A stretch of 63,855 nt of DNA, filler included, from Sanchytrium tribonematis (taxonomy: Eukaryota): the NCBI GenBank assembly GCA_018985235.1. It is 16 parts of 16 records of this genome, joined end to end, with 100 filler letters (N's around TTAATTAATTAA, not from the genome) between each part and the next. Parts side by side here need not be neighbours in the genome. Positions count along the whole stretch, not along the records: positions 1 to 20,652 come from JADGIG010000096.1; positions 20,753 to 23,551 come from JADGIG010000979.1; positions 23,652 to 26,445 come from JADGIG010000980.1; positions 26,546 to 29,338 come from JADGIG010000981.1; positions 29,439 to 32,229 come from JADGIG010000982.1; positions 32,330 to 35,117 come from JADGIG010000983.1; positions 35,218 to 38,002 come from JADGIG010000984.1; positions 38,103 to 40,883 come from JADGIG010000985.1; 8 more parts are not named here. The stretch is one strand, 5' to 3'. Of this stretch, positions 10,749 to 60,571 are shown in pieces; position 1 is the stretch's first letter, and each line of letters begins with the position of its first letter. A program made the position numbers and the translations under genes. The notes below the pieces were generated by a model. That model saw nothing but the letters and a program-made list of their open reading frames with translations. It made no database searches and was not told the origin of the DNA.

Positions 10749-11265
10749 ATGACCAATGCAATACCAAAAGCAGCACAAATACGACTACAAAAAGAATACA
10801 TGTCCATCTTAAGATTCCCAATAGACAATATATCAGTAAAGCCAGACGACCAAAATTTATTAATTTGGTATTTTGTGATTCAAGGACCCACAGATACACC
10901 TTATTTTGGAGGTGAATATTTCGGCACCATTATTTTTGAGAACAATTATCCATTCAGTCCTCCAAATTTCAAAATGTTTACTCCAAATGGAAGATTTGAT
11001 CCTGGCAAATTAATTTGTATGACAAATACGACATTTCATCGAGACATGTGGAACCCTCTGTGGACCATAGAATCAATGCTCATTGGATTAGTGTCTTATA
11101 TGACATCGTATATATGATTCATGTAGATCAGAAATAGGCGGAGTGGGCCTTGTATATACGACTGAATACCAAAAATTAGAATTAGCTAAAACTTCATGGA
11201 AGTGGAACAGAGAATTTGGGATGTTTATTGAGCATTATTCAGATCGACTGCTTATGGAACACTGA
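10749..11265 (+). CDS. UBC6: ubiquitin-conjugating enzyme E2, UBC6/UBE2J type; 2 exons (10749-11107, 11127-11265)
   Basis: RLQKEY, GPTDTPYFGGEY, YPFSPP, TPNGRF, ICMT and WNPLW. Splicing gives MTSSEIGGVG...QKLELAKTSWKWN, matching the UBC6 post-core segment. Confidence 0.85.
11108..11126 (+). other. 19-nt spliceosomal intron (UBC6)
   Basis: gtatatatgattcatgtag; removal restores the frame. Confidence 0.85.
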
Positions 11266-11342
11266 GTTATTATTAAACCTAATTATTTAAAATACTTTAT
11301 GACTTCAAGTAGCCCAATTTAGATTCGTAAAATTCTATTAAT

Positions 11343-12895
11343 TCATCGCATGGCATAAGCAATGATACCAGCAATCATACTGCCGTTACAGTAGCAGCAA
11401 TACCTCCAAAAATCTTCACAACTAATTTTGGAACTTTTTTTAATGTCCCATATTTTATATAAACGAACAATGCAGCACTGAAAGCTATAAAAAATACAAT
11501 AGAAGTGGCAAAAAGGTAAGCATACACAGGCGTACTTGGTGTTTGCGCATAGCCTAAAACGCAATTTGTGCCAAAACATTGATAACCATTGTTGCAGCAG
11601 CCATTCGCTCCACAGGTGATGGTGTTGTTTGGACAAGCTGTAGCACTAATGCAAGTGTTGTTACTACAAACAAAACCCACGCCACAGCAGCTATTTCCGC
11701 AACAGGTCGTTCCTGTTTTACAGCATTGTGAGGCGTAAGCATCGCCACAATCAAACGAGCCTGCGTTGCATTTTGAATATGGAACACAAAGACTGTTCTC
11801 GCACCCATACCCAAAATTGCAGCGATTTCCATTACAACAGGTTATGCCCGAAGAACAAGATGTACTTCCACAACAATTTGCTCCAGTGGGAATGCATTTA
11901 GAACTTTCCGTGCAATAAGTTTGACCAGCTAGGCACTGGTTTGAGGAAACAGGTGGCGTGGTTCCAGGATTCGTGGGCGCTGGAGTAGCAACGCTATATG
12001 GCGATGAATTTTCTACATCAATTTGATATACCTGTTCTGTAAGGAGTCACGATTCCAAGGCAGCCAGTTATCGGCCGTACACTTCTACCTCTTGCATTTG
12101 TGGTATGTAACAAATCGATAATTGTCTGGGTGTTTGCGATTCCGAATGAAGTCATGCCCAAGGTCCATGGCCCGGATGTGCAGCAATTGCAAAAGTGCCT
12201 GGCGTTGAATCATCTGCAGTAAACCTGGCGTTGTAATAACTCGTGACTTGTGCGTATCTCTGACCAGCAATGGAGTCATCGTGATCGTTGGGATTATAAG
12301 TCACACCGAATTTAGCGTGGAAATTAGTGGTAACAGTATAAATCAGCGTAGCCAGCATAAGTGTTCAAAATTCCTTGAGTTGTTCCATCAGCAACATCAA
12401 AATCATGTACTTTGGGTAATATTTAGAAACGGCTGTGGATGGTAAAAACTTGTTAATTTGAGTGTTTATCACTTCACTAAAATCAATAAGTTGTTGTTGG
12501 AAAGTTGCCTTTGCCAGTGTGCTCAATTGCGCCAAACTGCCAGAGTATCGTAGTCCAATAAGGTGCCCTGCCAAGACAAGCTGAGAAGCTATTCCATTAT
12601 TTGCATTGTCAATTGCAATTTGTTCTGGAATTCCTAAATAAAAGAACATGGAATTTGAGACATCACTACGTGTTGGTTCTTTAATGGTATTGGCCATTGC
12701 AAGTCCATCCATAGTCACTCCCTCGGTAAAAACAAAGGCAATTTGATTTCGTAAATTGGTTTGACATTGACTAATAATGCTCGAAGATGGTGGAATGGGT
12801 ACTGGTGCTCTTTTTGATTTTGATGATAAATCAGATTGCTGGTATATAAAGAGAATTACTAACGCAAATAACAAGCGAAAGTAGTTAACCGCCAT
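11343..12895 (-). pseudogene. NodB/polysaccharide-deacetylase-like domain + Cys-rich repeats + C-terminal TM, several frameshifts
   Basis: CQTNLRNQIAFVFTEG, GHLIGL, YPKYM and IIDLL...GCLG..PY segments, then CC-rich repeats and TM. Needs frameshifts near 12400-12330, 12155 and 11380, plus one 19-nt intron. Confidence 0.65.
12013..12031 (-). other. 19-nt spliceosomal intron (deacetylase-like gene)
   Basis: gtatatcaaattgatgtag; joins PYRT to ENSSPYSVATPAP... and keeps the frame through the Cys-rich repeats. Confidence 0.8.
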
Positions 12896-13761
12896 AAGTT
12901 TCAGGCTGTCAGCCAATCTGTGTAAGCAAATTGCATAAGTGGAAAAACATATTCAAATTCCGCACCACTTTCATTTTTAGTTCATGTTAATTACAAATTA
13001 CGTTTTCGTATCAAGTGGCAATAATGGCTGCGGCCAAGTTTGCCTTTTAGTCAAGTAACTGTATTTCCCCTTTGACTATTTTTGGCCTCATATCACAAGG
13101 CTATACTAAGCTCGAATTCAAAAAGAGATTGTTCCTGAAACCAAATTAAATTATTTATTATTCAGAAATATTTCAATAATTCCGCTTCATCTGCCTCGAG
13201 ATCTTTTTCTGCCCAAACATCTCAGAGTGAAAATCAAGGATGACAGAATATCATATAAGTCTTGCATCTTGAAAAGCAATACCATTTTAAAATCACCACT
13301 TCACAGCAAAGCAATTTCAATGTTGATGATAGTTTGTGATTGCGATCCTCGTCATCTTTTCAGACTTTAACAATTGCTCCGGTCTTCCTCTTGTTTTATT
13401 TAGTTAGTTCCCAAATGGCTTTCTATGACTTCTTCTTTAGCAGTTGCCTAATTGTGAAATTTCATGTTCTCTTTACGCTTAGTTTTCCAGTTACTCTTTT
13501 GATATCTTGAATTTTCGTCTTGTATCTTTGTATTTCCCTTTACATTTTCGATTGTAATTCTGGACTCTAACGGTGATCTTCTGACTCGCGACTATTGTGG
13601 AGGTCATCTGCTGATCGTGCCATTTCTCCTTTCAACAGCTAATTTCATTACGTATTATTATAGTGTCCCTCTGAATTACAAAATGAGTGATGGGTTCAAA
13701 TTTAGTTCAAATTAGTTCACTGCCAAATTGGTTGATCAAAGTACAGATCATAGTCATAACT

Positions 13762-19558: not shown

Positions 19559-19787
19559 TCTGTCATGCAAAGTAGATCATTGAGCTAAGAACATGAGTCA
19601 TTTTATAATTTATTGGCGAACCTTTTGGACTAGGGCTGAATATTAAGGTAATATTTGGTAAATCTGAATTTTAATATTTGCTTAAATATTTTATGGCGTA
19701 TTACTCAGATACATGCACACATAGTTCTACATTGACCCTTACAAATACACTAAAACTAATGTGGCTTGTTTCAGATATTTTGACGCG

Positions 19788-20652
19788 ATGCTTTTTTCGA
19801 AATTGATTTTTGGATTAATTAGTGCGGATTGCGCGAATACAATACAGCTCGCGTATAATATGAACATGCCACAAGTAGATCCAGCTCACTGGGCAAAATT
19901 AAATGCAGATTGCTGTAACGACCCAGGGAGTACCGGATGTGACGCGAATGGCCGAGTCACGGTCATTATTTGGGGAGGAGGATTAAATGGTTTTATAAAT
20001 TTTACGGCATTTCTTAATTTGCCTAGTCTCTCTTTTTTCAAAATAGAATATCAAAGCTTGTCAGCCACGATTCCCAACAAGCTTCAAGAGTCGCTTACAT
20101 ATTTCAGTGTTTATGCCAACCTTGGTGGTACAATTAATTTAAATGCAAGCAGCTTTAGGCCTCCTAATAACCTGCAATATTTTGATATAGGCTATGTGAA
20201 TGTTTTTGGCGAATTTGCTAAAAATGCGTTCCCCAAGAGTCTCATTGCAACAAATTTTATATTTTGTGGTGGACTTCATGGCAGCCTCTATTTTTATTCC
20301 CCGCAATCTACCACGCTCTACTACTCGGGCGTTAAGAAATTGTTTGTATTTAATCCTAGTCAATTAAGTGCAAATTTAGATAATTCAGTTCTATCAGCTT
20401 CTCAAATTGCCTATCTTCCTCCATCTTGCAGCAGAAATGGAATAATGCAAGACACAGACTGCCAATATGTCAAGACATTTGCACAGAATTTGAATATGAA
20501 TGCTTCCAATCCATTACTTTTCAAGCAGGTCTCCTCCAATTGCTGCAATGCTGCTGGTGTTAAATGCGAGAATATCACAAATGCTGTATTGGGAATAAAC
20601 TGGAGTGGATTGAAACTGAATGGAACTGTGGATATTTCATCGTTGGAATATC
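19788..20652 (+). CDS. LRR receptor-like protein paralog C (3' truncated by contig end)
   Basis: Signal peptide, cap+LRR module, start of second cap; clearly paralogous to A and B. Confidence 0.85.
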
Positions 20653-20752: not shown

Positions 20753-22954
20753 GTCGTGGTATTTAATATAATTGTTTGTGATGTTTGTACAAAAAATCGA
20801 CGTGTAATGACTAAATATACATGTATTACCTGTTTTTGATTCACTATTTGTCATACTAGTGCCAATCTCAAGTGGCTGTCGCACTGGATTCAAGTAGAAT
20901 TTGTTACACATGGTTAAATTTCCTGCTCCAAAATCATTTAAAAGCGCATTAAATGATAAATCACACTTTGAGAGTGTCAAATCACTTGATTTATTGATAG
21001 ACACTCTTGAGATTTGATTGTATGGTACTAAAACGGTAGTCGGCTTGAACAAATTCAAAGATCCAGTTAAAAATATAGTTTCAAATGACCAATCTTGTCG
21101 CAAAAGAGATAAAACTGTCAATGTAGGTGGAAATATAGGCAAATCACCACTTAAATAGCAGTTATCTATTGTGATTTGAGTCATATTCACTGGAATATCT
21201 GGAAATTTGCCATATATATTATGGCTCGAATCAATTTTCAATGTTTTAAAAGAAGGAGGTAATCCCATTGAGCCAAAAGTTCCATTGAAATTGTATCTCA
21301 CTGGTCTATAGTTAATATATGGAAATGAAATATCAATGACGTGTCCAGATTGACAAGTAGCAAATCCAGAATTGCAACAATTTTTGCTAATTTTTTCAAA
21401 CAACTCCGGTGCAATCACATTTACATTCATGGCTTTTGCGAAATCAATCACATAATCACAATCAGATGGTGTATTGGATGGCAATTGGATTAATTGGGCA
21501 GAAGTACATCCATTAATATTTACCAATGATGTTGCATCGAAATAATTCATTGATAAATCACAACTAGGGATGTTGATGATGCTAGCCTCTCTTACAATAG
21601 ACGTGAAGTAATTGTTACTCACTAGTAAACCCTCCAAATTTAAGCCTGTAATATTTAAAGACCCTTCAAATAAATTATTCCCCATTTCAACACGAATCAA
21701 ATTTGGATATTTTGACAAATCAACAGTCCCATTGAATCTATTATAGTCAATGTATAATTCAATCAGAGTAACCGGAATGTCAAATAATGAACCAGCAATG
21801 TTATTTTGATAAAAATACAAATATTTCAAATTAGTCGTGTTAAAACGACCCTCTATCTTGCTTATCAGGTTGTTGAATATCTCAAAATTCGTAGTTTCTG
21901 ATGGAATCAATGAAATATCCAACGTACCGTATACATTGAGATTGACCAAACTCATTTCTGGTGACTCTGCCATTTTTGCATTTAAAATATGGGAAACACA
22001 GCAATTCGTTTTTAATAAATTGTATCTATCTGGAGAAGTACTTGACATGTGTAATTTATCAACCATTTGAATCACATTTGCACAATCTTGAGGTGCTTTT
22101 TCAATAAATCCTGCTTGTGCGCTACAGACACTGGTCAAATTAGCACTCGCTGATGTATCCAATTGCGGATTTGCAAAAATATAGCACTGAGTAGGTAGAC
22201 ACGCATACAACTGAGTAAAATTGTTGAAACCTATATAAATGGAGTTCATTGGATATTTCAAAGTCAAAATACCTTCAAAACTGTTTCTATTCAATTCAAT
22301 AGACTTTACACTAGGTGGTAATTCTGGAAATATACTTGAGAAATGACAATCAATAATTATAACAGAAGTCAAACTGAGTGGCCAATCAGATAATTTCGTG
22401 TTTTGACCATTAAAAATGACATTTTTCAAGAACAAGGTGCGTAGATTCATTGGTAATATGAGTGTATTCAGTAGCTGGGATGATTCAATAGATAAATCTG
22501 TCAACGAATCTGGCCAAATCATGTCTTGAATGAATTTTGTATTCCCCAAATACACATAATTCAATCTTTGAGGCATTTGAGTCACATCTAATGTGATATA
22601 AGATGTTTTCAAATCCAAATATGTCATGTTAAATGGCAATTCATTAATCTTTCCCCCATAAAACTCACTTGTCTCTAAAATTTGAAGATTTGATGGTAGT
22701 TCAAAGATGGTCGTATCTGGCTCTTTAATGGATTGATAACCAGCGCTCTGCATTGTAAATCCATTTACACTGGTCCATCGTATCTCTATAACGCGTTCAT
22801 TCAAACAAATAACTCCAGAAGATAAACAACAATCTGATTCTATTTTTGAGTAAAGGGTGGGATATTTTTGTTTAAAGTGTAATTGATCTGCTAGTTTAAT
22901 GACTACTGCGCAGTCTATTGAAATGGACACGACAAGAAGCAACGCGTATAACAT
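20753..22954 (-). CDS. LRR receptor-like protein with three cap+LRR modules (3' partial)
   Basis: Signal peptide; three DC..(V/I)I...(D/N)CC caps each followed by LP..L..L LRRs and a C.(L/I)..N cap; 19-nt intron in the stalk. Confidence 0.85.
20811..20829 (-). other. probable 19-nt intron (LRR stalk)
   Basis: gtaatacatgtatatttag; spliced product reads ESKT-VITRR, similar to the spliced junction of the paralog at 59484-59502. Confidence 0.6.
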
Positions 22955-23019
22955 TTGAAATGGGTAATTTTTAAAATTTAGATTAAGTATTTTTGAAAAT
23001 CATAGATTGACACAATTTA

Positions 23020-24492: not shown

Positions 24493-25353
24493 ATGAATTT
24501 CAATCGTCCTACCTTTGTAAATTATCCGTATGCATCACAAGCGCATCATCAATCCACTCAATTAATTCAATTATATCCAAATCATTTAAAATTAAACTCA
24601 ATTCATCAAAATCAAGATGATTTAATGGTCATTTATGGAACATTGCCAGTACCCTATAAAAATAGCACTTATAATATCCCAATTGAGTTTATATTACCCA
24701 AATTATTTCCATCAATTGCACCATATTGTCGTGTAGTCCCTACAGAACACATGAAAATCAATATTTCAAGTCAAGTGCATTCAGATGGTAAAATATCACA
24801 TCCATATATCCAAAATTGGGATCATAATAGCCAATTAACGCATTTATCACAAGAATTGATTCATTTATTTAAACAGAAACCACCTGTTTACGCAGCACCC
24901 AAAAATCAACCCATTTCTGTGACACCCTATGATCCTGATTTAAAGCTTAAAAATGAGATACAATCTAAATTATCTGTATTATATGATCAATTAGACCATG
25001 AAATGACTGTAGAACTCAATTCTAAAAAGAAACAATTACAGCAATTAACAAATAATCAATCTCAATTACAGTTTAAAATCAATCAAGTAAATCAACTTGT
25101 AGAACAACAGAAACAGTATCACATGTACTTGAATAGTGAAATTGATAAATTAAAAGAGATTAATGGTCGGAAATATGAGTTAAGTATTAATAATTTTGAG
25201 ATTTCTGAAGAAATTAAAATGAGGTCTAAATTACATGCTATTCAAGATACGCTAGATGTATTACAACAGAAATTTGAAAAGAAAGATTTGGCATTAGATG
25301 TTTGGATGAAAATGGTGAATCAATTGGGTAGAGAATATTTCATGTTGCTGTAA
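24493..25353 (+). CDS. VPS23: ESCRT-I subunit Vps23/TSG101
   Basis: UEV domain (GTLPVPYKNSTYNIPI...PYI..W), coiled coil, SB box (IQDTL...LGREYF). Confidence 0.92.
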   Translation: MNFNRPTFVNYPYASQAHHQSTQLIQLYPNHLKLNSIHQNQDDLMVIYGTLPVPYKNSTYNIPIEFILPKLFPSIAPYCRVVPTEHMKINISSQVHSDGKISHPYIQNWDHNSQLTHLSQELIHLFKQKPPVYAAPKNQPISVTPYDPDLKLKNEIQSKLSVLYDQLDHEMTVELNSKKKQLQQLTNNQSQLQFKINQVNQLVEQQKQYHMYLNSEIDKLKEINGRKYELSINNFEISEEIKMRSKLHAIQDTLDVLQQKFEKKDLALDVWMKMVNQLGREYFMLL

Positions 25354-25395: not shown

Positions 25396-26007
25396 ATGGC
25401 CAAAAAAGGTTTGTCATTAGAAGAGAAACGCACAAAAGCATTAGAATATTTCCATGATACTAAAGGTGTTTATTTGATGAAAGAATTAGAGAAATTATTA
25501 CCCAAATCTAAAGGAATTACATCCATGACTGTAAAAGAAGTGGTACAATCATTGGTAGATGATAATTTGGTGGTTATGGAAAAGATTGGGACATCTAACT
25601 ACTTTTGGTCATTTCCATCACACGCAAAATTAATGAGGCAGAAGGAATTGGCAAATTTGAAAAATGAACATGATTTAATATTGAATATTATCAATGCACA
25701 AGAACAGGATTATGATGAACTCATGTCTAAAAGACAGAGTGAGCATCGGGTTGACAAAATAAAAGAATTTGATGCATTAAAATCAAAAATTGAAGAAATG
25801 GAGCAACAAATTGAAATGTACATGGATTTTGATCCAGAAGTCTTGAAATATAAAAAGAATGCAATTATAGTGGCTAAAGAAGCTGCTAATAGACACACAG
25901 ATAATGTATTTGTGGCTCAAAGATATTTAAAGAACGAACATGGCATTCAGAGCACAGATTTCAATCAAATGTTTGAAATTGATGCTAAATTTGATAACAT
26001 CGAATAA
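25396..26007 (+). CDS. MND1: meiotic nuclear division protein 1
   Basis: KKGLSLEEKR, KELEK..PK.KGI..MTVKEVVQSLVDD, EKIGTSNYFWSFPS, AANRHTDNVF. Confidence 0.96.
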   Translation: MAKKGLSLEEKRTKALEYFHDTKGVYLMKELEKLLPKSKGITSMTVKEVVQSLVDDNLVVMEKIGTSNYFWSFPSHAKLMRQKELANLKNEHDLILNIINAQEQDYDELMSKRQSEHRVDKIKEFDALKSKIEEMEQQIEMYMDFDPEVLKYKKNAIIVAKEAANRHTDNVFVAQRYLKNEHGIQSTDFNQMFEIDAKFDNIE

Positions 26008-26545: not shown

Positions 26546-27924
26546 CGCTTTGAATAATGATATATTAAGTAAGCGAGATTTTGGACTCAATTCTTCCTTT
26601 TTATTTGAGCCAATAACAAATGATACAAAAGTGATAGAAGAGATAAAAAAGCTACTTCCTCTTCAAAGGCTCATAATATTAGGCGTTTTGTATTTTGGAA
26701 AAGTTAATTTAAACTACGTAATAGATTTAGAAATAAAAGTGAGTGAAGAAAAGTTTACGATGAAAAATGAAAAGCGAAATTATGAGTCTAAAAATCTAAA
26801 CTCTGCAGTAGCTTTCGAAAACCTAAATTTAATACAAAACCTGTATATGATTCAAAATGATAAAATTGGACCTGGTAATGGTAGTCAATTTTGCGAACTA
26901 CTACTTAAAGTTTTTAACAATCAATTCATTAATATTGCTCAACAAAATGAAGATGAAGTAACCATATCTTTGTTGCAAAATTACTTACGTCATATTGGAA
27001 ATATCCTTGATACTAAATATGATACGGAATATGAGACCAAAAAATCGGACCCAAAAGATTTAAACCGAATCTTTAAAGATAGCTTGGCTAGATGGAAGGT
27101 CGCCTTATTGAGCTTTATGGATTTACTTGGCATGATATTTGGACTCAATTTATCAAAAGAACTTTTAACAAAACTTTGGAAAACCTGCTTACATTCTTTT
27201 CACAAATATCTTCAGGCTGAAGTAAAACTCCCAGATAAGTACAAAGATCAACTGGAATTACAAGTGGCAGATGAGTATATTGATTGCGTCTATATTGAAA
27301 AATTCTCCGGGTACATTCAGCAACTTATAAAAGCAGACAAAATCGACAGCGCGTTGGTAGGAGATTTAGTGAAAGGACTTGATAAGATACTTGAACTGAG
27401 AGATGCGTCGAAAGACATTGGCAACGATAAAGAAAGGTTTTACAAATCCTTTGGGCTAAAATACAACAACGGTCAACTTCAATTAATGAATGACATGGTT
27501 GACCTACAGACTTTGGAAGCAATATTTAAATTTCAGGTCAGTTCGCTTTCAGATAATGAAAATGAAGACTTGCATTTTCTGCTTTTGGAGAGAGTTCTTG
27601 CAGCCACAAGAAGTTTTTATTTAGAATTGAATGAAAATAGAACAATGCCAACTAAAGAGTATTTTTTATTTATAAAGAACCTCAATTCAGTCATTAATAT
27701 TGTGCCTGCAATACCTCGGTAATCTCAAGACTTATTGGGTCAAAAAAGATAGCGATAGGAAAGATCAAATAATTTTACAACTGATGTCCAGCCTGACTGA
27801 CATTTTGCAATATCAAGAAATCACGTGTTTATCAACTAGCTATTTGAACAATGATTTAAGGGAGCTATTGTATGAATCTCTAAAAATTGGAATATTTATC
27901 ATAAAAGGAAGGAATAAAACCTAA
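26546..27924 (+). CDS. C-terminal part of a MON2-like HEAT/ARM protein (5' partial, one intron)
   Basis: Helical ORF. Spliced end (LLLERV...MPTKETSIQSLILCLQYL...DLRELLYESL) resembles the Mon2 C-terminus; family call is tentative. Confidence 0.5.
27659..27677 (+). other. 19-nt spliceosomal intron
   Basis: gtattttttatttataaag; phase-2 removal joins ORF 26550-27722 to the frame of ORF 27700-27924. Confidence 0.75.
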
Positions 27925-27959: not shown

Positions 27960-29338
27960 TTAGTCTAAATCCATATCGTCTTTGTCCTTTTTCCTTTCTT
28001 TTTCTTTGGTTGCTGGGACGGCCTGGCTGAGATTTTCACTTGTTAGAAAATCAAAATGCTGCTTATCTTTGATTGCAATAGCTATCTGACTAGGTAAAAG
28101 TATTCCGTTCTTATGGTATTTTAAAGATACGTCTATGAGTCCACTTAAGAAAAGTTTAACAGCCTAAATAAATATGTAAATACTTGAGTGAGGACGTATA
28201 ATGAACTTTCATCTAAAAGTTTATCAGTCCAACGAGTTACCGTCTGGGAAAATTCCTTAACAGCCTCAATTTGATTCGGTGACGGGGTATCTAGGGCAAC
28301 GAGGTGATTAAAATTCGGCCTGTTTACAAGAGAAAAATCCGATAGTAAATTCTTTTCCAAATCTTCCACGTTGTTGTTTTCAGAAACAAACAAATTCCTA
28401 GGAACTTCATGTGGAGACTCACTTCCACAAAATTTGCAATTTGATATACTTGGAATTTTTTCTATTCGTGGTTGCGATTGAGATTTGGTTGCTGGAGATC
28501 TAGCCTCTTCCACCAAAGAACTGTCTATTGGCGATTCTAAAAAATTAGGAACAAATTTCTCATGGCCTGGAAAATTTCTAGGAGGCTCAAACCTGGTGTC
28601 TTTATGCAAATTTAATTCGTAAAATTTTTCGTCTCCCAAAACCTCTTTACCAGTACATTGCTGATCTAGTTTTAAATGGTATGGGATATCTATAGGAGAA
28701 TTTCTACTGTCGTGGAAGAAAATCTGAATTCTGGAAATAAATTCGCCCCATCCTAGTCTTGTCACATAAAAGGGTGGACTAGTGACATCTACCACCTCAT
28801 GCGGTTTATACGAATTATGAAAGTAAAAGCGTACTTTCGCGACAAAAGTGGTAATATCGATAGCAAACTTTGTTCTCACAAAAAGCATCCATCTATAGGC
28901 GCATTTTTCGTAATTTGTTATTCTATTTTCAGGAGCTATAAATTGATTAATATTACCTATTATAACTGATCTTTTGATATAGAATGTTGGATCAGGTGGA
29001 TTAATTGTATTTAGTTTGACTTTAGGTAATTCAATCGCACCACGTTTCATTCTGCCATCTTCCGCTTGAGGAGGGGATTGCACTCGGGACTCCGGGATCG
29101 ATTGATTTGGAGAAGTGCTAACAGCATAATTAAGATTTTTTAAATCTGTATCCTCAGGAATTTCATGGTAATCTAAAATACTTCCGCATTCCATAATAGC
29201 GTCCTTTGGGGTTCCCAAACTAATATTATGAGAAGTTTGAGAATGGGTGATAAGAGCCTGTGGACTATTAAAATTGCTGCGAGAACAAACTTTGCAAGTC
29301 AATTTAATGTACTGTCCCATAGTGTCTTGAAATATTAC
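27960..29338 (-). CDS. YEATS2: YEATS-domain protein, YEATS2-like (5' partial, one intron)
   Basis: Zn-finger-like N-terminus; YEATS domain (RWMLFV, KVRFYFHNSYKP, TRLGWGEF); spliced exon 2 encodes LLPSQIAIAI...FDFLT histone-fold-like end. Confidence 0.8.
28164..28183 (-). other. 20-nt spliceosomal intron (YEATS2)
   Basis: gtatttacatatttatttag; removal restores the FDFLT C-terminal motif. Confidence 0.85.
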
Positions 29339-32714: not shown

Positions 32715-33479
32715 TTATTGAAAGTATTGCCTTGTCTTTGGTTTCTCTACTCCAAATACTTTATACTTTTCATCATCAATTTTAATCAAATAAAATTGAT
32801 CTAATAAATATTCCTGATTTTCTTGTTCTAAATGTAAATCCATCCACGCACCATCATATGCGTCCCATTTAACCAATTTACCATCCTTTTGTAATCCAAA
32901 TATACCTTCATCAATCACTTGAATTTGAATGATAAATTCTTTTGTTGATTGAATCACTGGGATTGTTAATAATACACCCTTGTAAAAACATCGAGTGATA
33001 CATTTAATATCCTGATAAATCAATACACAAAATGTATTCTTGTTATAAATGGAGAATCGACTAATTTTATCATAAATCTTGTAGTTTTGTGATAAATTGT
33101 CCCATTGTTTTGTCTTTAAATTGTATAATAATAAATGACCATTTGTATCAATACCACCCGTGTAGCCATTTGCAATTTCTAATTGAGTGAAATGGATATT
33201 GTTTGTGCTTCTTTTAATCCAATGAGGATTTGGATTGGATAAATGGCAATCAGATTGACACCACATTTCTTGACTGGGACTGATGAAGCAGATTTTAGTA
33301 CCATCTACTGAAAATGATTGCACTTTAGTGGATGTAGGAATAGTTTGCCAATTTTTGACTGTATCATCTGATGCCGCACAATTCAAATCTAATGTGATAT
33401 TGGATGCACAAATAAGTGAGTTAGATGCTGAATAACTGATTGCATTTGGTAAGATGGCATTGGCAATTTCATATCTCAT
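32715..33479 (-). CDS. tectonin-like beta-propeller repeat protein
   Basis: Repeats such as FTQLEIANGYTGGID and IQIQVIDEGIFGLQKDGKLVKW; start uncertain. Confidence 0.55.
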   Translation of the reverse strand: MRYEIANAILPNAISYSASNSLICASNITLDLNCAASDDTVKNWQTIPTSTKVQSFSVDGTKICFISPSQEMWCQSDCHLSNPNPHWIKRSTNNIHFTQLEIANGYTGGIDTNGHLLLYNLKTKQWDNLSQNYKIYDKISRFSIYNKNTFCVLIYQDIKCITRCFYKGVLLTIPVIQSTKEFIIQIQVIDEGIFGLQKDGKLVKWDAYDGAWMDLHLEQENQEYLLDQFYLIKIDDEKYKVFGVEKPKTRQYFQ

Positions 33480-33617
33480 TTTAATGTGATTTGGAGTAGT
33501 GGGTATTTGTAGATGTTTGAAATTGACAATTATCTGTGATTGGTTGCTGGATATGAGATGATTGCTGTAATTGGATTAATCATTTTGAGATGAAAAATAT
33601 TTGATAACTTTTTTATT

Positions 33618-37734: not shown

Positions 37735-38002
37735 TTACTTTATTGTTGGCATTACAGTATCAGACTTGGTTGAAGATACGTCTTCACTTCTCCACAAGGA
37801 AGTAATTGTTTTTGTGGTAGTAAAAAAATCAATGCCTTTCTGGCCTAATTTAAATAAAACGACCATAAAAGTTCGTGTCTCCTAGAAATGATCCACGGCT
37901 GCCTGTAAATGAAAACATTGGCACAGGAACAGGTATAGGCACATTAATTCCAATTTGTCCCACGTCCGTCTTATCCTGAAAGCGTCGGGCATTTGCACCA
38001 TT
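37735..38002 (-). CDS. ALDH6A1: methylmalonate-semialdehyde dehydrogenase C-terminus (5' partial, one intron)
   Basis: [50 protein letters not shown]...VMPT. Not in the ORF track. Confidence 0.92.
37845..37863 (-). other. 19-nt spliceosomal intron (ALDH6)
   Basis: gtcgttttatttaaattag; splits the Gly codon of the conserved FYG motif. Confidence 0.92.
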
Positions 38003-40040: not shown

Positions 40041-40191
40041 TTTAGAACTTGAAACTTGGCCTAGTAGAATATTTTAAAAACTACGTAAAAGAGTCAAAGT
40101 CTCATTTACAGACTAGAGATTGAAATGATTCAAAACACGTGTACCATGGAATAGAGAGATCAAAAATGGTCTTATCCGTGTTTTATCCAGG

Positions 40192-43864: not shown

Positions 43865-44523
43865 GATTTGCCATTCCATGTTCAATTAAGGCTATAGCAA
43901 TTAAAACAGGTGCCCTGCCTAGTCCTGCAACACTAAATAAATTGGAATTACCAATGCACAGCAATACATGGACGGTCTGACTGCATTAATTGCGAACCAG
44001 ACAAAGAACTCCTATGATCGGTGGATTTTGGAGAGCTGGATTCATTTATGGATGGAGAACTGGACATTGCGTGCTTTCGACCTGGAAAAATATCGCCAAA
44101 CCTATCTTGTACCAAGCCCAGAAACTTTAGTATAACATGTTGGGGTGGCGTCCCCCCATCTAAATAGGGACAGTCTAATACTTGAATACCGTCATCTACC
44201 AACTTTTTTGTGTTGTAAGTAGGTTCACATACTCGAACAACGTCTGAAACATTATATTTTTTAAACTCAGCCGCAATCAGTGGAAGGGTACTATCTGTTG
44301 GACAATCTAGTATCAAGAATCTTAACCCATTATATTCAATTAAACTAAAAATGCGACGCAAATCCACTTTCCCATCGAATTTAACGGGCGGAACAGAGGA
44401 CGTATTGATTGGCGCTGAATGCACAGACGGTGATGGGGAGTGTTCTCTCATTTTGGAAATAGATTTAGCTGACAGCGTCTCTTGGGACTTAGCTTTCTTT
44501 TCCTCGGTGCTTATGGGATTCAT
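43865..44523 (-). CDS. PTP4A: PRL/PTP4A-type protein tyrosine phosphatase (3' partial, one intron)
   Basis: RFLILDCPT, VVRVCEPTY, DGGTPP; spliced CIAVHCVAGLGRAPVLIAIALIE. Confidence 0.93.
43933..43951 (-). other. 19-nt spliceosomal intron (PRL), splits the catalytic Cys codon
   Basis: TG|gtaattccaatttatttag|T gives TGT in HCVAGLGR. Confidence 0.95.
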
Positions 44524-46740: not shown

Positions 46741-48761
46741 AACCTGAGCTCACTAGCGTCAATAAATCCAATTAATTGTTTGCGATTGATCAAGATGGGA
46801 AATCCACTGTCAGCAAAACCGAGTTGTTCATGATCCTTTAGCAATAGTATCAAGGATCTTACTGAATTTGATAGTCTACAGTCTATAAATCGCATTGAAT
46901 CCAACATGACTTCATTTATGAATGGCTCTGTGGTCTCATTTATTTCTAAATTTTTCTCTGATCTATTTGTTCTAAGGTTGGCCCCTCTTTTATAATTTAA
47001 AGGTTGTTCGATTGAGAAATTCAATTGATTTCCATCAGTCTTTTCATTGGCACGCTCGTCAATAATTTTGGGATTAAGATATGGTAATCGGCTTACTCTA
47101 ATTAGCCTTTCAATGAGAGATAGCTTATTAAAAAAATTGGCTGTCCAATTGGCAATTAAGCTTGATAACATGATAGGAAGCACAAATGTAAGACTACCGG
47201 TAAGCTCATAAAATATTACAACAGATGAGATTGACATTCGGGTCACCCCCGACAGGGTAGCGGCGGCGCCTATTAGTGAGTATGAACCTAAAGAAATGCA
47301 GGGCGTTGAAGGATCGCAAAAGTTTAAATATCCGATTCTTTTAAATAGAAATTCAAAGATATTCCCAATTATGCGGCCCATTAAGCTTCCAATCATCATG
47401 GTCGGCAAAAATGTGCCACCAGGAACTTTGCAACCTGTAGTTACGCCAAATAGAAATGCTTTTGCCAAAAACGCATAGCCAAGATAAAATATTTGAGAAG
47501 ATTGTGCTTGACCTTTACAAATCAGATCATCCCGAGCTTCGGTACAATTTTGAAATAAATCGGATAAAAGCGCTGGTATGGATAATCTTGTGATCTGAAA
47601 AGGAAAGCAAAGAACTGAAGTCAAGATACATAATAACACCACTTCCATGACTTCGTGACTCTTAAAAATTTTGCGCCTTATTCTTGACAAATAAATAATT
47701 AGATCATTAAACACAGCACCAAATAGTCCACCAAAAAAGCCCAAAAGAGCAAAAGGTACTAGCTCAATGAAAGTAAATCTATGTTCTTGGTTCAATTGAA
47801 ACATCACAAGATGATTTTTGTTCAAATTGAAGACCCTGACTGTGAAGGCAGCTATCATTGACGAAAAATAAGATCGGATCATCGTTTTGGAAGGAAAATA
47901 AAACGATGTCTCTTCTAAACTATACAAAATACCACCTATAGGAGAACCAAAGGCGGCTGAGACACCTACAGTGCTCGCGCAGCTTAAAAGCTCACGTTTT
48001 TTGCCCTCATTGTTCTTGTATTTACTCGAATAACGCGCTAATATATTGCCAATACAACAGCTTATATGAATGAGAGGGCCTTGAATGGAAAGAACCAACC
48101 CGCTCGAGACTGCAAACAACAATCCAAAAAATTTAACAAACAAAGTTCGGGTTCCAAGATAGCCTCTTATAACAAAGCCAGACAATATAGTTTTCAATTC
48201 TGGTAATCCACTCCCGGATCCATAAGGCATCACGACTTCTTCGCCTTGATCAGTGGGCTTTTTGTATGCAAACTCCATGGTCAGGGACACTGCCAGGAAC
48301 CCGAATAGAACAGAAAATACAAGATAAATACCAAAGTCAACTAAATTTGAATTGATATTTTTAAATAATCTTAAACTCGACCAGGTTTTCCACTCTTCAC
48401 AATTACCGATAAGTACATTGCAACATTTTAGCTGGTGAAGAAAAAGACTTTTGCTACAATACCCCGACTTGAAATCGGAGAGATAAATTGCAGAATAGCT
48501 TAAAATTGCTTGAACAAGTCCAACTGCTATTCCTAAAATAAATAATATGAGCCATACGTGAATTTCTTTCCATAACCACTGAAGACTTGAGTTTGTGGGT
48601 TGCTTCGCTTGCTGGCGGTAGGCAAGTGAATCTTGAAACCAGTCAATTGAGGAAAAATCGACATAGTCTACTTTCCGACCGTGAGTTGCAGTTATATTTT
48701 GATTTGGATTCAAGTTTCTTTCTTTTCGGACCACATTCTGCGTGATGCTGTATCTGTGCAT
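46741..48761 (-). CDS. CLC chloride channel/transporter (Gef1/ClC-3-like, 3' partial)
   Basis: GSGLPE.KTILSGF, SIQGP (for GKEGP), AFGSPIGG.L.SLEE, PGGTFLP, GVTRM and start of a CBS domain. Confidence 0.93.
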
Positions 48762-49615: not shown

Positions 49616-50420
49616 TGAATACTTAGAGTACGTACTTGATTTATATGGCAAAAGTATTAAAAATATCGATTTTATGACATTTGACTATTTGCTCCGTTAA
49701 TACATGTATTTCTGGATTGTCCACAGTTCCAATGATTGAATGCGCAAGCCATAGATTTAATTTAGCAGTAGAAAGATATTTGGAGCAGCACATGCCATTA
49801 TTATCAGTTGTTCACGAGTTGATGAAGGTAAAAATTAATAATTTAGAAGCTTAAGACATTGAAGAAATCTGCTGCTCTTCGCAAGAAAACAAATCTTAAA
49901 CCAATAGGCTTCAACGATAGAAGACGATACCTTAGAAACGACTTTGAGATTGCTATTCTGTTCCCAATCCGGAACAACGTACTCTCTTATTAGAATTACT
50001 TGATCATTTAAAAAAATTTGAAAGTGTAACAAAGAAGCTACAAGAGGAAATGTTGACACTTATTGATGTACGTGCATTGTTTGATGGCATTATTGCTTTG
50101 TAACCATCGATGGTATCTCATTTGTCTCCTTCATTCAAAAATGCTGTTGTGAAAGTACTGGATAACGAAGAGGAAAAGCTTATCGATGAGGAAAAACTGG
50201 TTTTAAAACCATTTTTATTACGCGATGATGTTGTAGAAGTAGTTGAAGTTGAAAAGATAAAGTTTGCTGATGGTTTAATTTAACAAAAGAAAAAAAGATT
50301 TAATACTACTAATTATATTGACTTAAGCTTTATTCCTGCTACATCTAACTTGGTGGAGCGCTTGTTTAGCAAAACAAAGCGTGTACTGACAGATTTGCGG
50401 CAAGCAATGTACAAGTAAAT
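49616..50420 (+). mobile_element. decayed hAT-like transposase
   Basis: Stop- and frameshift-ridden frame ending FIPATSNLVERLFSKTKRVLTDLRQAM (hAT dimerisation motif). Confidence 0.7.
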
Positions 50421-51110
50421 TAAAAATAATTTATTTAGATATCTAGCTTATTTATTGCTTCTATCAAATGGTGATCAATAGATTTAAATAATATTTAAGG
50501 GAGCTCTGCATGGTGATAGGGCTGCCAGTTGGCGAATTGGAGATTGGCCAGACTCCGCTGGAGGGGTAGGATCTTCACAATCCTTGCTACAGTGAGTTTT
50601 GAAATTTTAGTCTTTTGAAAATGTAATGTGCATCGCATCTATATTTCCAACATTTACAATCAATATGTCAATGAAACATGGTACAACGCAATTTGATTTT
50701 GGCTTTAAATTACTTTGATTTATGAAATACAAACAGATAGAATGAAGCTCATTCGAAACTAATATATCTTATATTATCTCCTTTGTAACTTTGATACTCC
50801 TGAGAGTGTTTCTAAAATATTTTTTCCAATCCGTGGAGTGTTCCAAACTTCATAGTACAATCAGCATTTATCGGACCAATAAAGTCAATCCATGATATTT
50901 TTTGCCAAATGTTCTGGAGAGTGCACAAATAACTCTCATTTTTCATTTCTTTTCTCCTTTTTGTCAACAAATCTAATTTTAAGAAGTAAAACGGATATTA
51001 ATTACTTAGATGAGAATCTAGCGCGATTATCTTGTTGAAATAAAGGGTCATTGTCTCTATGGTTGATGTAATCACCCTTCAATGAACTCATAAACCAGTC
51101 CCTGATTCAA

Positions 51111-51600
51111 TCACTTACACCAATTTCTGGCTCCATTATTGTTAATTACTGTTGTGGGTGGTGTATCTCGTAATTTACCACTGTTTGAACGATAGGTGCT
51201 ATTGCCAATCAAAGCAATTGCCAATGCATTTCTCAAATCTTTGCCATTTATAGAATTACCCATTAACAACTTGAAAATGACTTGAAAATTACTCAAAATC
51301 ATGTTTAAATAGAATAGAAATACAGGGATCCACCACTTCTTATGTCTCATGGAGTAATTGCTTATTTTCAATTCAGCAACATTAACACCACCCATTTGAG
51401 ACGAATAGAAAATTGATGCTGGTGGATTGGGCATCACTTCGTGACCCTGTAAAACGGATATACCCATCTGTGTTGCTTGTCTATAACTATATCTCTTGCT
51501 CACATTTAATAAATTATTGTTCATCAACTCATAAATGTTTGTTAGAAAAATCTCTGTTGTCCGATCATTGTATTTAATTACTGCTTCGCGATCATTTAGC
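51111..51600 (-). mobile_element. decayed piggyBac-like transposase C-terminal part
   Basis: YSSQMGGVNVAE...YSMRHKKWWIPVF matches the piggyBac YN..MGGVD..D.....Y.....KW motif with the Asp residues lost; upstream KYND....FLTN segment. Confidence 0.65.
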
Positions 51601-52489
51601 CGTACTGTTGATGCAAATAAATGTTTGTGCTGGTCCTTGTTTACGTATTATGGGGTATTATTACATCCCACCAGTTGCTTTAGGGACTATCAAATTCAGC
51701 AAAAGTACAAGCCTTACCTAAAAAACCAGAGAGGACACTCTATTTAATAAATTCATTTTGCAAATCTCGAGACAGTTGATCAAAACTGTTTCACCCTAGA
51801 TAAAAATCTACAGAAAAAAAAATTTCGGCACGAAGGAAATATTATTCAAAGACGAATTTAAGATATTTGGGCCCAAAAATAGAATGTAAATTTTTGAATG
51901 AACCAAATGAATTCCATCACTCATAAGGACCGAATGAATTGAGAGGCTTTTTTTATTCAATATTCCGTATTTGAATCATTATCAAATAATCAAATCTTGT
52001 ATATTCAATGTTCACTAATCGGCATGAAAGAAGATAACGTCAATTACATGTTTTTACTCGGAAACTTGGTATTATTTTACATTTTCTGGCCCATGCAAAT
52101 AGTATCAGTGAGATGAAGATGCATTTTGGCGCATGTGGAGTGACAATTTGTTCTTCAATTTAAATTTTTCAGAATTATTATAACACGCATTTTTTGGTAA
52201 TATGTCTATAAGTATCTATGATGTTGCTATTTGGAACGCCGAAAACATCAGATTTATAACCGCTGTGGTATTAATGGCTTTTGTTTTATCGAATCACCGA
52301 GTTTAAATGGAAATATTAGTTCTATAACTGAAGAGAAGCATTCATTTATTGTTTCAACGTGTTCTCCGTGCAGATGTCATCTTACGCCANNNNNNNNNNN
52401 NNNNNNNNNNNNNNNNNNNNNNNNNNNNNNNNNTTAATTAATTAANNNNNNNNNNNNNNNNNNNNNNNNNNNNNNNNNNNNNNNNNNNN

Positions 52490-53208
52490 TCCGCATTGTC
52501 ACAAAAAAGTGCAACTGCTCAAGTGCGAGCTCACCCATGCCTCTAAAATCTGTACTAGGATCTTGCCCTTGAAAACCTATGTTATATAAATGTACCTAAG
52601 AATAGCCACTGATTGGTTTTACGGTTGGTAAGCGTTTCTGGACTAAGGGCTTCCCATATCTCCATAAGTTTTATTTCGTGATGTTTGTTATCTTTGTTGT
52701 ATTTAGTATTCACCATCGCATCAATAACAAATAGTGTCTGGTTGATTTTATGCATTATAAAGAGAGTGTGGTAAAGAATTAGAGCATGGGGACTATTAAT
52801 TGCACCCTTGCCGGGAAGTTTCTTCTTAAACGCTATTGCCTGAGATAATTCTAGTATAGAGCATTCAGCAGATTCAAGGTAGCTACGCTCCAAATGCAAT
52901 TCCTTGCTATAAAATAAGCTGTGGTCGATTTTAATCATAGTTGAAATAGTAGGAATCAAATCTGGTGATTTATAATCCTTTTCTTTCTGAAGTTGTTTCT
53001 CGATGATGCGGAGTAATGCACTTGTCATTGTTGATATATTGTAAAGCATCTTGAAACTTTTATAAATTCTAACCATAATATCTGATTGCCAATACTTGGA
53101 AATTAAAACTGCCTTGACCTGGGTAGGTAGTATATGATAAATCTTTAATATAAATAAACACTGCGTGTAAATTATGGCAATGTATATGTTTGCAATCAGT
53201 CTAAACAT
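52490..53208 (-). CDS. ELMO-domain protein (ELMOD-like; 3' partial, one intron)
   Basis: HEIKLMEIW...QWLFLG|FQGQDPSTDFRGMGELAL after splicing. Confidence 0.9.
52577..52595 (-). other. 19-nt spliceosomal intron (ELMOD)
   Basis: gtacatttatataacatag; restores GFQGxDPxTDFRG. Confidence 0.95.
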
Positions 53209-57015: not shown

Positions 57016-57021
57016 TAAATT

Positions 57022-57552: not shown

Positions 57553-57688
57553 GCAATATTGAAGATGGCAAGTATTTATGTCATAAAATGACGCCATATG
57601 ATGTGGTATGTTGCAATTGAAATGCTCATGGGACCCATTTACAAGTCACGACTCATTATTGCATTTCACAAAGTCAAATTCACTACAT

Positions 57689-58130: not shown

Positions 58131-58230
58131 NNNNNNNNNNNNNNNNNNNNNNNNNNNNNNNNNNNNNNNNNNNNTTAATTAATTAANNNNNNNNNNNNNN
58201 NNNNNNNNNNNNNNNNNNNNNNNNNNNNNN

Positions 58231-58803
58231 GAGGCATTGTAAAATGAGATGTTTGGCTTGAAATAGTTGATGATATTTGCTTGTCTCTACTTTTAGTAGT
58301 TTGATATTGAGTTGATAATGAGGTTTGTAAGCTGCTTGTTGTCAACAATTGCTTAATATTTCTTGTTTTGATTAATGGAAAATCATTTGCAAAACTAGAT
58401 GAAACAAGAGGCAAACCGATCAAATTTTCAGTCGAAGAAAAACTCGAATCAGTATTTGGTAATGAATAGAGATTGTTTTGCAAGCAAATGAGTGGGGATG
58501 GTAAATTGGAAGCACCCGCCAATGGATTCTGATCAATACTGCACCTACTTGTCATAATGGCAGAATAATCAATAATATTCAAACCTGTGAATTATTGTTA
58601 TTGATAAACAAAACTTGAGGCTTAAACGCACTAAATTTGCCAGTAAATTGATTCTGAGTCAAATAAATGGATGTTGCGGAGTCTGGCATGATGGGCAAGA
58701 CCCCAGAGAACATGTTATAGTTGACACTGAATTGCTTGAGTAAAGGTGGAAAAGTAGCAATTGATCCAGATAATAAATTGAATCCCAAATACACAATTTG
58801 CAC
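58231..58803 (-). pseudogene. 5'-truncated, frameshifted LRR receptor-like paralog of 59266-60571
   Basis: 1-nt deletion in NNN[x]FTGLNIIDYS near 58590; shares RCSIDQNPL; no N-terminus. Confidence 0.75.
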
Positions 58804-59265
58804 AGATTTTTTATTTATTTATTTAGAGGATGAAACTCTTGAAATGATAGACAATTAAGTCTGGTTTGCCGTTCGCTGATACATTAGTTCGTCATGTAGA
58901 ACATCTAGATAAGTAACAATGTCATTGTAATCCGGTTGAATAAGCATTGAATTTACCCTAAAATTATCCAAGTAATGAGAGCAACATTGGCAGAGGGGTA
59001 TTACTTCAATTTATTTCAGCCCTTTTTTATTTATTGGACCATCAATTGAATATTCTAATTTTCAATCCAATCAAATGATTTTAATGAAAGCCATCAAAAT
59101 TTAGCAAAAACGACGCGAATTGTTACTTAATTTATTGATCAATAGACCCCAATAATTTGGTCTTTTTTCCTTTATTTCTACTAAATGGTGATTTTGTAAA
59201 GATATAAACCACAATTCCAAGATCCAATATAATAATAATAATAATATAATTTATTCTTTGATGGT

Positions 59266-60571
59266 TTATTTGTCAAAACAATGCCCACCAAGATCCAATG
59301 CGACTTTAATCATCAAAGATAATGTTAAATTGATGGAATATTGAGGCATTTGGAAATGTGTTACCAAATGGTTGATTTTGGATGAATTCATAGGTTTGCT
59401 ACTATCCATAATATGAGACTGGATATAAAACGAGGTTTGGGAGAGTCGGGTAAATGTCAAAATTTGTAGATTTCGAGTGACAACTAGATTAATTCGAAAT
59501 ACTTGATTTCTGTGCATCAGTTTCTAGTGCCGTTGTACTTGATTGTGCCAATTTGTTGCTTGATATTTCATAACTCGTTGTTTCTTGCATCGTGAAACTG
59601 GATGAAACAAATGGTAAATTAGTCGATTTCTCAAATGTGCTAAAATATGTAGATTGCAAAGTACTCACACCCAAACTTGTGGTCAATATAGTAGATGTTT
59701 GTACTGCAATTGAATATGTGGTCGAACTAGCAAGTGAGTAAATGCTGTTTTGTGCACAAATACTTGAAGATGGCAAATTGAATGATCCTTTTAAAGGATT
59801 CTGATCAATGCTACATCTACCTTGTAATAATGCAGAATAATCTGTAATATTTAATGCTGTGAATCTGTTGTTGTTGATATACATTGTAATAGGCTTATTT
59901 GCACTAAATGTCCCAGTAAATTGATTTAAAGAGATGTAGATGGTAGTTAGTGTATTTGGCATAATTGGCAAATCACCAAAAAATAAATTGTTGTTGAGAC
60001 TCAATTGAGTGAGAAATGGTGGCAAATTTGTGATTAATCCAGATAATAAATTGGATCCACAATATAATACCACAAATGATGGTGGTAAATTAGGAATATT
60101 ACCAGTAAATTGATTCTGTTCTGCATATATTCGAGTCATTTGATTTGGGATGGTTGTAGGGAGAGGACCTTTAAAATCATTGCCAGTTATATCCAAAACA
60201 CGTAATTGTGGTGAAATGATCCAATTTTCTAAAGACCCACTCAAATGATTGTAAGTGAGAGTCAATGTTCTAAATATATTTGGAAATGACACCAAAATAG
60301 AGCCATTTACAAAATTGTTTGAAATATCCAATCCGGTGAAAGATGTCAAACTCGCTAGATTACCATTCAAACTGCCATTCAAATTGAGATTTGGCCAACT
60401 GATTTGAACCACTCTATTGGTGATGCAACTAATCCCAATTGTAGAACAACAATCCACATTTAATTGATTCCAAATGGTTTTGTTGACAAGGTGTAAATTC
60501 AGATTCTGAGCAAATGGAATGACACTTGAACAGTCTACGGATACGCCATATAGTGTTGCTATCCATAACAT
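59266..60571 (-). CDS. LRR receptor-like protein with one module; 19-nt intron in stalk; TM end possibly frameshifted
   Basis: Signal peptide, cap, LRRs and S/T stalk. Splicing links to the frame of ORF 59266-59517 (FQMPQYSINLTLSLMIKVALD). Confidence 0.8.
59484..59502 (-). other. 19-nt spliceosomal intron (LRR stalk)
   Basis: gtatttcgaattaatctag; contains the in-frame TAA that ends ORF 59489-60571. Confidence 0.8.

What the first reader, a model, noticed from the sequence alone, without database searches (positions are those of the whole stretch)
11108..59502. Ultra-short, length-fixed (19-nt) spliceosomal introns in a fungus-like genome
Seen in sequence: every intron I could establish is GT-AG and 19 nt (11108-11126, 12013-12031, 20811-20829, 27659-27677, 35756-35774, 37845-37863, 43933-43951, 52577-52595, 59484-59502) or 20 nt (28164-28183). 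They lie in ten genes on seven contigs. Six restore recognisable conserved sequence (PRL, ELMOD, ALDH6, YEATS2, HIRA, UBC6). I found no longer intron. Established knowledge: introns this small and uniform are known from chlorarachniophyte nucleomorphs and heterotrich ciliates, whereas typical fungal introns are several-fold longer. Inference: this is an independent origin of ruler-like tiny-intron splicing, probably with a modified spliceosome. Standard gene finders would mis-annotate these genes. I cannot confirm whether this has been reported for this lineage.
Basis: partly seen in the sequence, partly recalled or inferred. Interest (0 to 1): 0.93.

Follow-up and report, generated by a model that had tools for sequence, protein, structure and literature searches.

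The report
19-base introns in sanchytrid fungi
Genes of an alga-parasitising sanchytrid fungus are interrupted by 19-20-base segments with intron ends and an adenine at a fixed place, which are likely real introns, the shortest I could find for fungi, and would be a new independent origin of near-minimum-size splicing.

Summary
All ten segments read GT..AG and are 19 nt (nine) or 20 nt (one). Removal rejoins conserved protein in four genes by tool tests: PRL (inside the catalytic Cys codon; 27 of 27 residues across the junction equal the uninterrupted Amoeboradix orthologue), ALDH6, ELMOD and UBC6. HIRA, YEATS2 and an orphan gene are probable; three (12013, 20811, 59484) are weak. New here: all ten have A at -6 (9 of 20000 shuffles), nine have T at -8. 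This is a likely fixed branch point, at the same place as in Stentor's 15-16-nt introns. Two gene trees put the organism with Amoeboradix gromovi (Sanchytriomycota). Truncated database proteins of relatives decode as further 19-nt introns (one unique solution, one best fit). The A. gromovi annotation lists core U1/U2/U5 proteins but no Slu7 or Prp18. Splicing is not shown by RNA, and 'length-fixed' rests on about ten frame-breaking cases in 64 kb. I found no paper on sanchytrid introns; this scan's earlier notes hold only longer fungal tiny introns (Rozella, Neolecta). Verdict: real, a new member of a known kind, probably unreported.

The parts
43933..43951 (-). 19-nt intron, PRL/PTP4A phosphatase, phase 2 inside the catalytic Cys codon; putative branch A at 43938. 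Proven by homology.
   Evidence: top score of 6540 deletions, tied with its 1-nt slide; top of 3660; 27/27 aa identical to A. gromovi P0122
37845..37863 (-). 19-nt intron, ALDH6 (methylmalonate-semialdehyde dehydrogenase), phase 1, donor GTC; branch A at 37850. Proven by homology.
   Evidence: exon 1 ends at residue 466 of 9izx, exon 2 residue 2 matches 469, leaving exactly the junction Gly and residue 1
52577..52595 (-). 19-nt intron, ELMOD gene, phase 1; branch A at 52582. Proven by homology.
   Evidence: exon 1 residue 57 of 60 = PF04727 position 48, exon 2 residue 1 = position 53
11108..11126 (+). 19-nt intron, UBC6-type E2, phase 2; branch A at 11121. Supported by homology.
   Evidence: best of 47 canonical; 218.3 bits against 218.6 for a non-canonical 22-nt deletion; S. 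tribonematis protein stops at the same residue
35756..35774 (-). 19-nt probable intron, HIRA, phase 0, in-frame stop inside; branch A at 35761
   Evidence: exon 2 coding score +5.3 against -32.5/-31.1; present without gap in X1 (64); no homology over the junction
28164..28183 (-). 20-nt probable intron, YEATS-domain gene, phase 0; branch A at 28169
   Evidence: +5.6 against -33.5/-27.0; no tool homology for exon 2
27659..27677 (+). 19-nt probable intron in an orphan gene, phase 2, AAG acceptor; branch A at 27672
   Evidence: +2.4 against -12.1/-20.6; no homologue
12013..12031 (-). 19-nt candidate intron in a Cys-rich membrane-protein gene that has further unexplained frameshifts; branch A at 12018
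   Evidence: present without gap in X1 (14)
59484..59502 (-). 19-nt candidate intron in a frameshifted LRR paralogue; branch A at 59489
20811..20829 (-). 19-nt weakest candidate, LRR gene at a contig end; not needed for the frame; the only one lacking T at -8
49828..49846 (+).
   Evidence: no Pfam support
25399..26004 (+). Intronless MND1, used as lineage marker

Best explanation
These 19-20-base GT-AG segments interrupt genes of a sanchytrid fungus and are likely U2-type spliceosomal introns shrunk to near the physical minimum, predicted to be removed through a branch adenine six bases from the 3' end. Shown: the segments, their ends, the invariant A at -6 with T at -8/-9 and mostly A at -10, protein continuity after removal in four genes, and the lineage. 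Inferred: (1) U1/U6 read a minimal GTA-N-N-T donor; (2) U2 pairs with an A-T-T-N-A motif, a degenerate branch sequence, bulging the -6 A; (3) the AG five bases on docks without scanning, which in yeast needs no Slu7/Prp18; (4) the 13-14 nt from donor to branch A are about the smallest lariat this spliceosome accepts, so deletion bias pushes introns down to that floor and lengths pile up at 19-20. The organism is intron-poor (0.14-0.2 per kb of gene span).
For: Ends and lengths. Junction homology: 38/45, 39, 48, 58. A at -6 in 10 of 10, T at -8 and -9 in 9 of 10; an invariant-A column in 9 of 20000 within-intron shuffles, with the T condition in 0. Stentor's branch A is at position 10 of 15 or 11 of 16, i.e. 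-6 (PMC9505925). Relatives: P0123's truncated tail has one internal solution, a 19-nt phase-1 intron with 10 exon bases checked (8 of 2000 shuffles). A. gromovi P0122's tail allows no acceptor before 19 nt and forces A at -6 and T at -8 at that length. Lineage: 100/100 (MND1) and 100/98 (PRL) clades with A. gromovi. Core spliceosome listed for A. gromovi: PRP8, BRR2, SF3B1, SF3B3, U2AF1, U2AF2, SF1-like, U1-70K, PRP22, PRP17. Slu7/Prp18 dispensable at short branch-3'ss distance (PMC3683925; PMC10158995).
Against: Only 4 of 10 are homology-proven and 3 are weak. The window holds frameshifted paralogues with plain 1- and 10-nt indels, so a frame break alone proves nothing. For all ten, open frames overlap, so a 1-nt indel could formally rejoin them, though it scores worse where homologues exist. 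Blind motif excess is modest. The refined-motif peak at 19 (10 against 3.2; 2 of 200) is circular for 7 of the 10 hits, and one hit (24976) lies in an intact ORF (79). The -6 A was noticed post hoc. P0124's tail does not give both A at -6 and T at -8 at 17-20 nt, only at 21-23, so relatives may be less uniform. P0122 also allows A/T at 21, 23 or 24 nt. Slu7/Prp18 are also absent in Cyanidioschyzon, whose introns are long, so their absence would not be specific.
Confidence: 0.8

Rival explanations
1. The introns are real but not length-fixed: 19-20 nt is the frame-breaking, easily seen part of a broader short distribution (about 17-25 nt, perhaps with a longer tail), including in-frame 18- and 21-nt introns.
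For: Ascertainment by frame breaks; AT-rich GTA..YAG excess also at 18 nt (9 against 4.5); one 20-nt case; P0124 fits best at 21-23 nt (89); only about 50 kb of gene span seen.
Against: 4 of 4 proven cases are 19 nt although 17, 20, 22, 23 or 25 nt would break frames just as visibly; P0123 is uniquely 19. Two 18-nt candidates that I read lie in apparently coding stretches of the HIRA and CLC ORFs (judged by eye); with the -6/-8 motif 18 nt shows no excess.
Confidence: 0.12
2. The segments are insertions in dead genes or assembly errors, and are not spliced.
For: Frameshifted LRR and other paralogues exist in the window; the short contigs may be alternative haplotypes (X1 shows two variants). 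Plausible for 20811, 59484, 12013.
Against: Independent genes carry inserts of one length with GT, AG and an invariant -6 A. Flanking exons are conserved. X1 contigs carry the UBC6, 12013 and HIRA segments without gaps (X1 may be the source, so this checks assembly only). Relatives show the same kind of break.
Confidence: 0.04
3. The segments are recently inserted introner-like elements or are removed by a non-spliceosomal route or by translational recoding.
For: Intron positions in PRL differ among close relatives: Cys codon in the window, Gly three codons on in P0123/P0124, a later site in A. gromovi, none in P0125-P0128. The UBC6 and 12013 segments resemble each other.
Against: The ten share only splice-type signals, by eye; the UBC6 break is shared with S. 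tribonematis; the PRL segment has a stop one base after the donor inside the active-site loop, which recoding would have to bypass.
Confidence: 0.04

Closest known systems
Heterotrich ciliate tiny introns (Stentor coeruleus, 15-16 nt; PMC9505925, passages read)
   Same: GT-AG, AT-rich, narrow length, branch A at -6; Slu7 and Prp18 listed as not found in Stentor and unlisted for A. gromovi
   Different: 3-4 nt longer (13-14 nt from donor to branch A against 10-11); intron-poor parasite; opisthokont
Chlorarachniophyte nucleomorph introns (18-21 nt; as described in PMC10245619 section 7)
   Same: Same length class, narrow range
   Different: Nucleomorph is intron-rich (over 800 in about 300 genes) and an endosymbiont remnant; here a nuclear fungal genome with about 0.2 introns per kb
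Mikrocytid introns (16-17 nt; PMC10245619 section 7)
   Same: Parasite, few introns, narrow length
   Different: Those have highly conserved sequence and a 17-19-protein spliceosome; here sequence is loose and U1-70K, U2AF and SF3B are listed for A. gromovi
Myxobolid and dicyemid short introns (median 22-27 nt; PMC13644364, parts 1-2 of 3 read)
   Same: Opisthokont parasites, donor reduced to GTa
   Different: Longer and more variable; branch A's only weakly conserved and moving with length
Blastocladiella emersonii introns (55-333 nt; PMC2773782, passages), sister phylum
   Same: GT-AG with CTAAC-like branch site
   Different: At least three times longer, so the shrinkage would be on the sanchytrid side
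Microsporidian and Rozella short introns
   Same: Fungal-lineage parasites with introns under 30 nt (microsporidia named; Rozella 25-32 nt only from unchecked scan notes)
   Different: Longer (microsporidian minimum near 23 nt is recalled, from no call); separate branch of Holomycota

Membership tests
U2-type spliceosomal introns | GT 5' end and AG 3' end | tested here: met
   10 of 10; acceptor TAG 8, CAG 1, AAG 1 (79)
U2-type spliceosomal introns | Removal restores a conserved reading frame with no gap | tested here: met
   4 of 10 by homology (38, 45, 48, 39, 58); 6 untestable for lack of homologues over the junction
U2-type spliceosomal introns | Branch-point adenine in a U2-pairing motif | tested here: met
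   A at -6 in 10 of 10, T at -8 in 9 of 10 (79); its use as branch point is inferred
U2-type spliceosomal introns | Removed from the RNA via a lariat | not testable with these tools
   Needs RNA of the organism; see Tried and rejected
U2-type spliceosomal introns | Organism encodes U1/U2/U4/U5/U6 snRNPs | tested here: inconclusive
   Proteins listed for the relative A. gromovi; the window's own genome is not held; no snRNA in the window
Fixed-length tiny introns (heterotrich, mikrocytid, nucleomorph kind) | Nearly all introns of the genome within a 1-4-nt range under 25 nt | tested here: inconclusive
   10 candidates at 19-20 nt, no supported longer one, but only 64 kb and frame-break ascertainment
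Fixed-length tiny introns (heterotrich kind) | Branch A at a fixed place, 6 nt from the 3' end | tested here: met
   fits A. gromovi at 19 nt, not P0124 at 17-20 nt (89)
Reduced or modified spliceosome | Loss of core or step-2 factors | tested here: inconclusive
   0 hits for SLU7, PRP18 by name and by recalled KO/KOG ids in the stored, cut eggNOG table; only 3757 of 7220 A. gromovi ORFs are annotated and ORFs were called without introns
Sanchytriomycota | Groups with Amoeboradix/Sanchytrium in gene trees | tested here: met
   MND1 100/100, PRL 100/98 with Allomyces as sister 90/90 (86); nearest named hits A. gromovi 65% and 64%, S. tribonematis 67%; two single-gene trees only

The most novel reading that the evidence does not exclude
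Sanchytriomycota as a phylum has nearly all introns at 19-20 nt with an invariant branch A at -6 and has lost Slu7/Prp18: the shortest spliceosomal introns of any opisthokont, converging on Stentor's geometry in a fungus whose published proteomes are truncated at these introns.
Probability: 0.5. Interest if true: 0.8.

Novelty: new member of a known kind. Interest (0 to 1): 0.7.

Why it matters
It adds a fungal, independent origin of near-minimum introns. A branch A at -6 in both heterotrich ciliates and sanchytrids, with different donor-to-branch lengths (10-11 against 13-14 nt), makes the question of what sets the minimum intron size comparable across lineages, and sanchytrid snRNAs and proteins are closer to yeast, where it can be tested. 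Practically, public sanchytrid proteins were called as plain ORFs on genomic contigs and some end at such introns, so gene-loss claims for this phylum may include false losses.

Tried and rejected
No whole genome held, so no genome-wide length distribution or snRNA inventory. Run search: no RNA holder listed; one DNA run X1 that may be the source. X1 gave no cover over the ALDH6 intron in the listing; a hole proves nothing. UBC6 'longer' search: 0 of 21 candidates passed. JGI scan with the PRL alignment: 11 loci of 232 pattern matches, 41-49% identical, none in the sanchytrid range; L008 and L009 have introns of about 500-600 nt at another site. PDB and Pfam gave no relevant match for HIRA or YEATS2 second exons; my sense that they fit these families' C-termini is recalled and untested. 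ESM Atlas did not complete. Unfiltered ORF-joining scan too noisy. Rejected candidates: 869-888 (paralogue comparison by eye shows a 10-nt deletion); 37301-37318 and 47915-47932 (18 nt, read as coding); 24976-24994 (inside intact Vps23 ORF); a 62-nt GT-AG at 34620-34681 (no -6 A; neighbours look like separate tandem paralogues). A first tail-decoding script timed out and was rewritten; it gave no solution for P0121 and P0159 because their tails are too short. Literature: 9 searches; none listed a paper on sanchytrid introns. In PMC8371127 'intron' occurs once, in the references; 2 supplements were too large and 1 unreadable and could bear on this. Subscription papers are not searched.
Full report
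Window. It is 16 contigs joined by N spacers, 33% G+C, gene-dense, with mostly uninterrupted ORFs. No whole genome is held.

Observation. All ten coordinates read GT..AG, nine of 19 nt and one of 20 nt, on seven contigs. Their interiors are 12.6% G+C against 34% in coding sequence.

Four are supported by homology. PRL: of 6540 deletions of 0-80 nt within 45 nt of the site, the 19-nt GT-AG scored highest against a profile of 30 homologues, tied only with its 1-nt slide (216.8 bits; unspliced 156.6). Against A. gromovi P0122 it was top of 3660, with 27 of 27 residues identical across the junction. It splits the catalytic Cys codon and puts a stop one base after the donor. ALDH6: exon 1 ends at residue 466 of PDB 9izx and exon 2 resumes in register. 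ELMOD: Pfam positions 48 and 53 are separated by exactly the four residues left after removal. UBC6: best of 47 canonical choices among 7281 deletions, 0.3 bit below a non-canonical 22-nt deletion (profile from 98 of the 149 other hits, those of 190-300 aa). Against the close relative P0309 six of the top eight deletions were 19 nt, but the canonical one (544) ranked below them (552).

Six are not proven. HIRA, the YEATS gene and the orphan at 27659 have second exons with coding-like codon use in the spliced frame only, but no tool match over the junction. 20811 is not needed for the frame. 12013 and 59484 lie in genes with other frameshifts, and LRR paralogues here show plain 1- and 10-nt deletions. 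A blind count of AT-rich GTA..YAG gave 9 at 18 nt and 17 at 19 nt against 4.5 and 9.9 expected (3 of 100 shuffles each, 29 lengths), which is suggestive only. Contigs of run X1, possibly the source, carry the UBC6, 12013 and HIRA segments without gaps.

Aligned at the 3' end, all ten have A at -6, nine T at -8, nine T at -9, seven A at -10. Shuffling within introns gave an invariant-A column in 9 of 20000 trials and never together with the T. I noticed this after reading that Stentor's branch A sits at 10 of 15 or 11 of 16 (PMC9505925, passages); the shuffle allows any of 13 columns. The one intron without T at -8 is 20811, already the weakest. A-T-T-N-A reads as a degenerate fungal branch sequence (established knowledge; B. 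emersonii has CTAAC). A rescan with this motif gave 10 hits at 19 nt and at most 4 at any other length of 12-40, but 7 are the training introns, one is a chance hit in an intact ORF, one lies just past a stop codon, and one (49828-49846) is a new unproven candidate.

Lineage. The nearest named MND1 (65%) and PRL (64%) are Amoeboradix gromovi, and the nearest UBC6 (67%) is Sanchytrium tribonematis; other named full-length MND1 hits are near 45%. Trees place the window with A. gromovi and unnamed metagenome proteins at 100/100 (20 of 120 listed MND1 rows used) and 100/98 (21 of 38 PRL rows), with Allomyces as sister. It is a sanchytrid distinct from both named proteomes.

Relatives. Sanchytrid proteins were called as plain ORFs on genomic contigs (PMC8371127, passages), so introns show as truncated tails. 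P0123 ends shortly after the active-site motif; the only internal solution is a 19-nt phase-1 intron followed by the conserved G-L-G-R read out of frame (10 exon bases checked; 8 of 2000 shuffles). The A. gromovi tail allows no acceptor before 19 nt, and at 19 nt forces A at -6 and T at -8, though 21, 23 and 24 nt are not excluded. P0124 allows 17 nt or more and fits the motif only at 21-23, which counts against strict uniformity. The method returned 28 nt, with 92 bases checked, for P0130 of another fungal lineage. S. tribonematis UBC6 stops at the residue where the window's intron starts. PRL intron positions differ among these relatives and four have none.

Mechanism. Most likely ordinary U2-type splicing squeezed to a floor: minimal donor, U2 pairing 13-14 nt downstream, AG five bases after the branch A. 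In yeast such a short distance makes Slu7/Prp18 unnecessary (PMC3683925 and PMC10158995, passages). The A. gromovi eggNOG table lists PRP8, BRR2, SF3B1, SF3B3, U2AF1, U2AF2, an SF1-like protein, U1-70K, PRP22, PRP17 and cactin, and no SLU7 or PRP18 (supplement file 4, cut when stored); Stentor's table marks both not found. This is weak, since half of the ORFs are unannotated and Cyanidioschyzon lacks both with long introns. A deletion-bias-versus-threshold model for narrow ranges is given in PMC10245619 (section 7 read). All steps in this paragraph are inferred.

Novelty. The kind is known: heterotrichs 15-16, mikrocytids 16-17, nucleomorphs 18-21 nt, myxobolids median 22. The sister-phylum fungus B. 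emersonii has 55-333 nt. Nine searches listed no paper on sanchytrid introns (listings only, except the papers named as read); PMC8371127 and PMC10459994 use 'intron' only in references, and the passages seen of PMC8476143 do not give a shortest fungal intron. Unread supplements and subscription papers may hold a mention. The scan's own notes have nothing on this genome or on sanchytrids.

Verdict. Real ultra-short introns with a likely fixed branch point in a sanchytrid: 0.8. New member of a known kind, probably unreported. Interest 0.7.

Noticed in passing
P0130 (JGI protein); P0129: A PRL of a different early-diverging fungus (groups with Lobulomyces) decodes as having a 28-nt phase-0 intron: another short-intron lineage.
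   Followed up: partly
window 4264-6084 (-): One intronless ORF joins a nucleotidyltransferase-like domain, AAA_28 and an NMN transporter, resembling a bacterial NadR-PnuC fusion (names recalled); possible horizontal transfer.
   Followed up: no
window 2-1437, 2134-4179, 19725-20651, 20753-22999, 38103-40073, 58232-60595: Large family of secreted or membrane LRR genes, several with frameshifts, suggesting rapid birth and death.
   Followed up: partly
window 11346-12952 (-): Membrane-protein gene with a Cys-rich part and at least three frame changes besides the 12013 segment, in sequence that X1 matches without gap.
   Followed up: partly
window 32718-34954 (-): Four tandem tectonin-like ORFs with similar C-terminal ends and unclear starts; a possible 18-nt in-frame GT-AG with a stop near 34053-34070.
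   Followed up: partly
window 9574-9692 (-): Single 5S rRNA gene between protein genes, about ten times the local depth in X1: dispersed multicopy 5S.
   Followed up: no
window 10749-11265 (+): The spliced UBC6 ends about 40 residues before relative P0309 and lacks its hydrophobic tail.
   Followed up: partly
window 61339-63747 (-); 49616-52389: Frameshifted retroelement (RT, integrase zinc domain) and a degraded DDE transposase-like region.
   Followed up: no
window 35218-37200: X1 shows two sequence variants at several places: heterozygosity or mixed strains.
   Followed up: no
window 9808-10713 (-): ATP-grasp R2K-clade protein next to UBC6.
   Followed up: no
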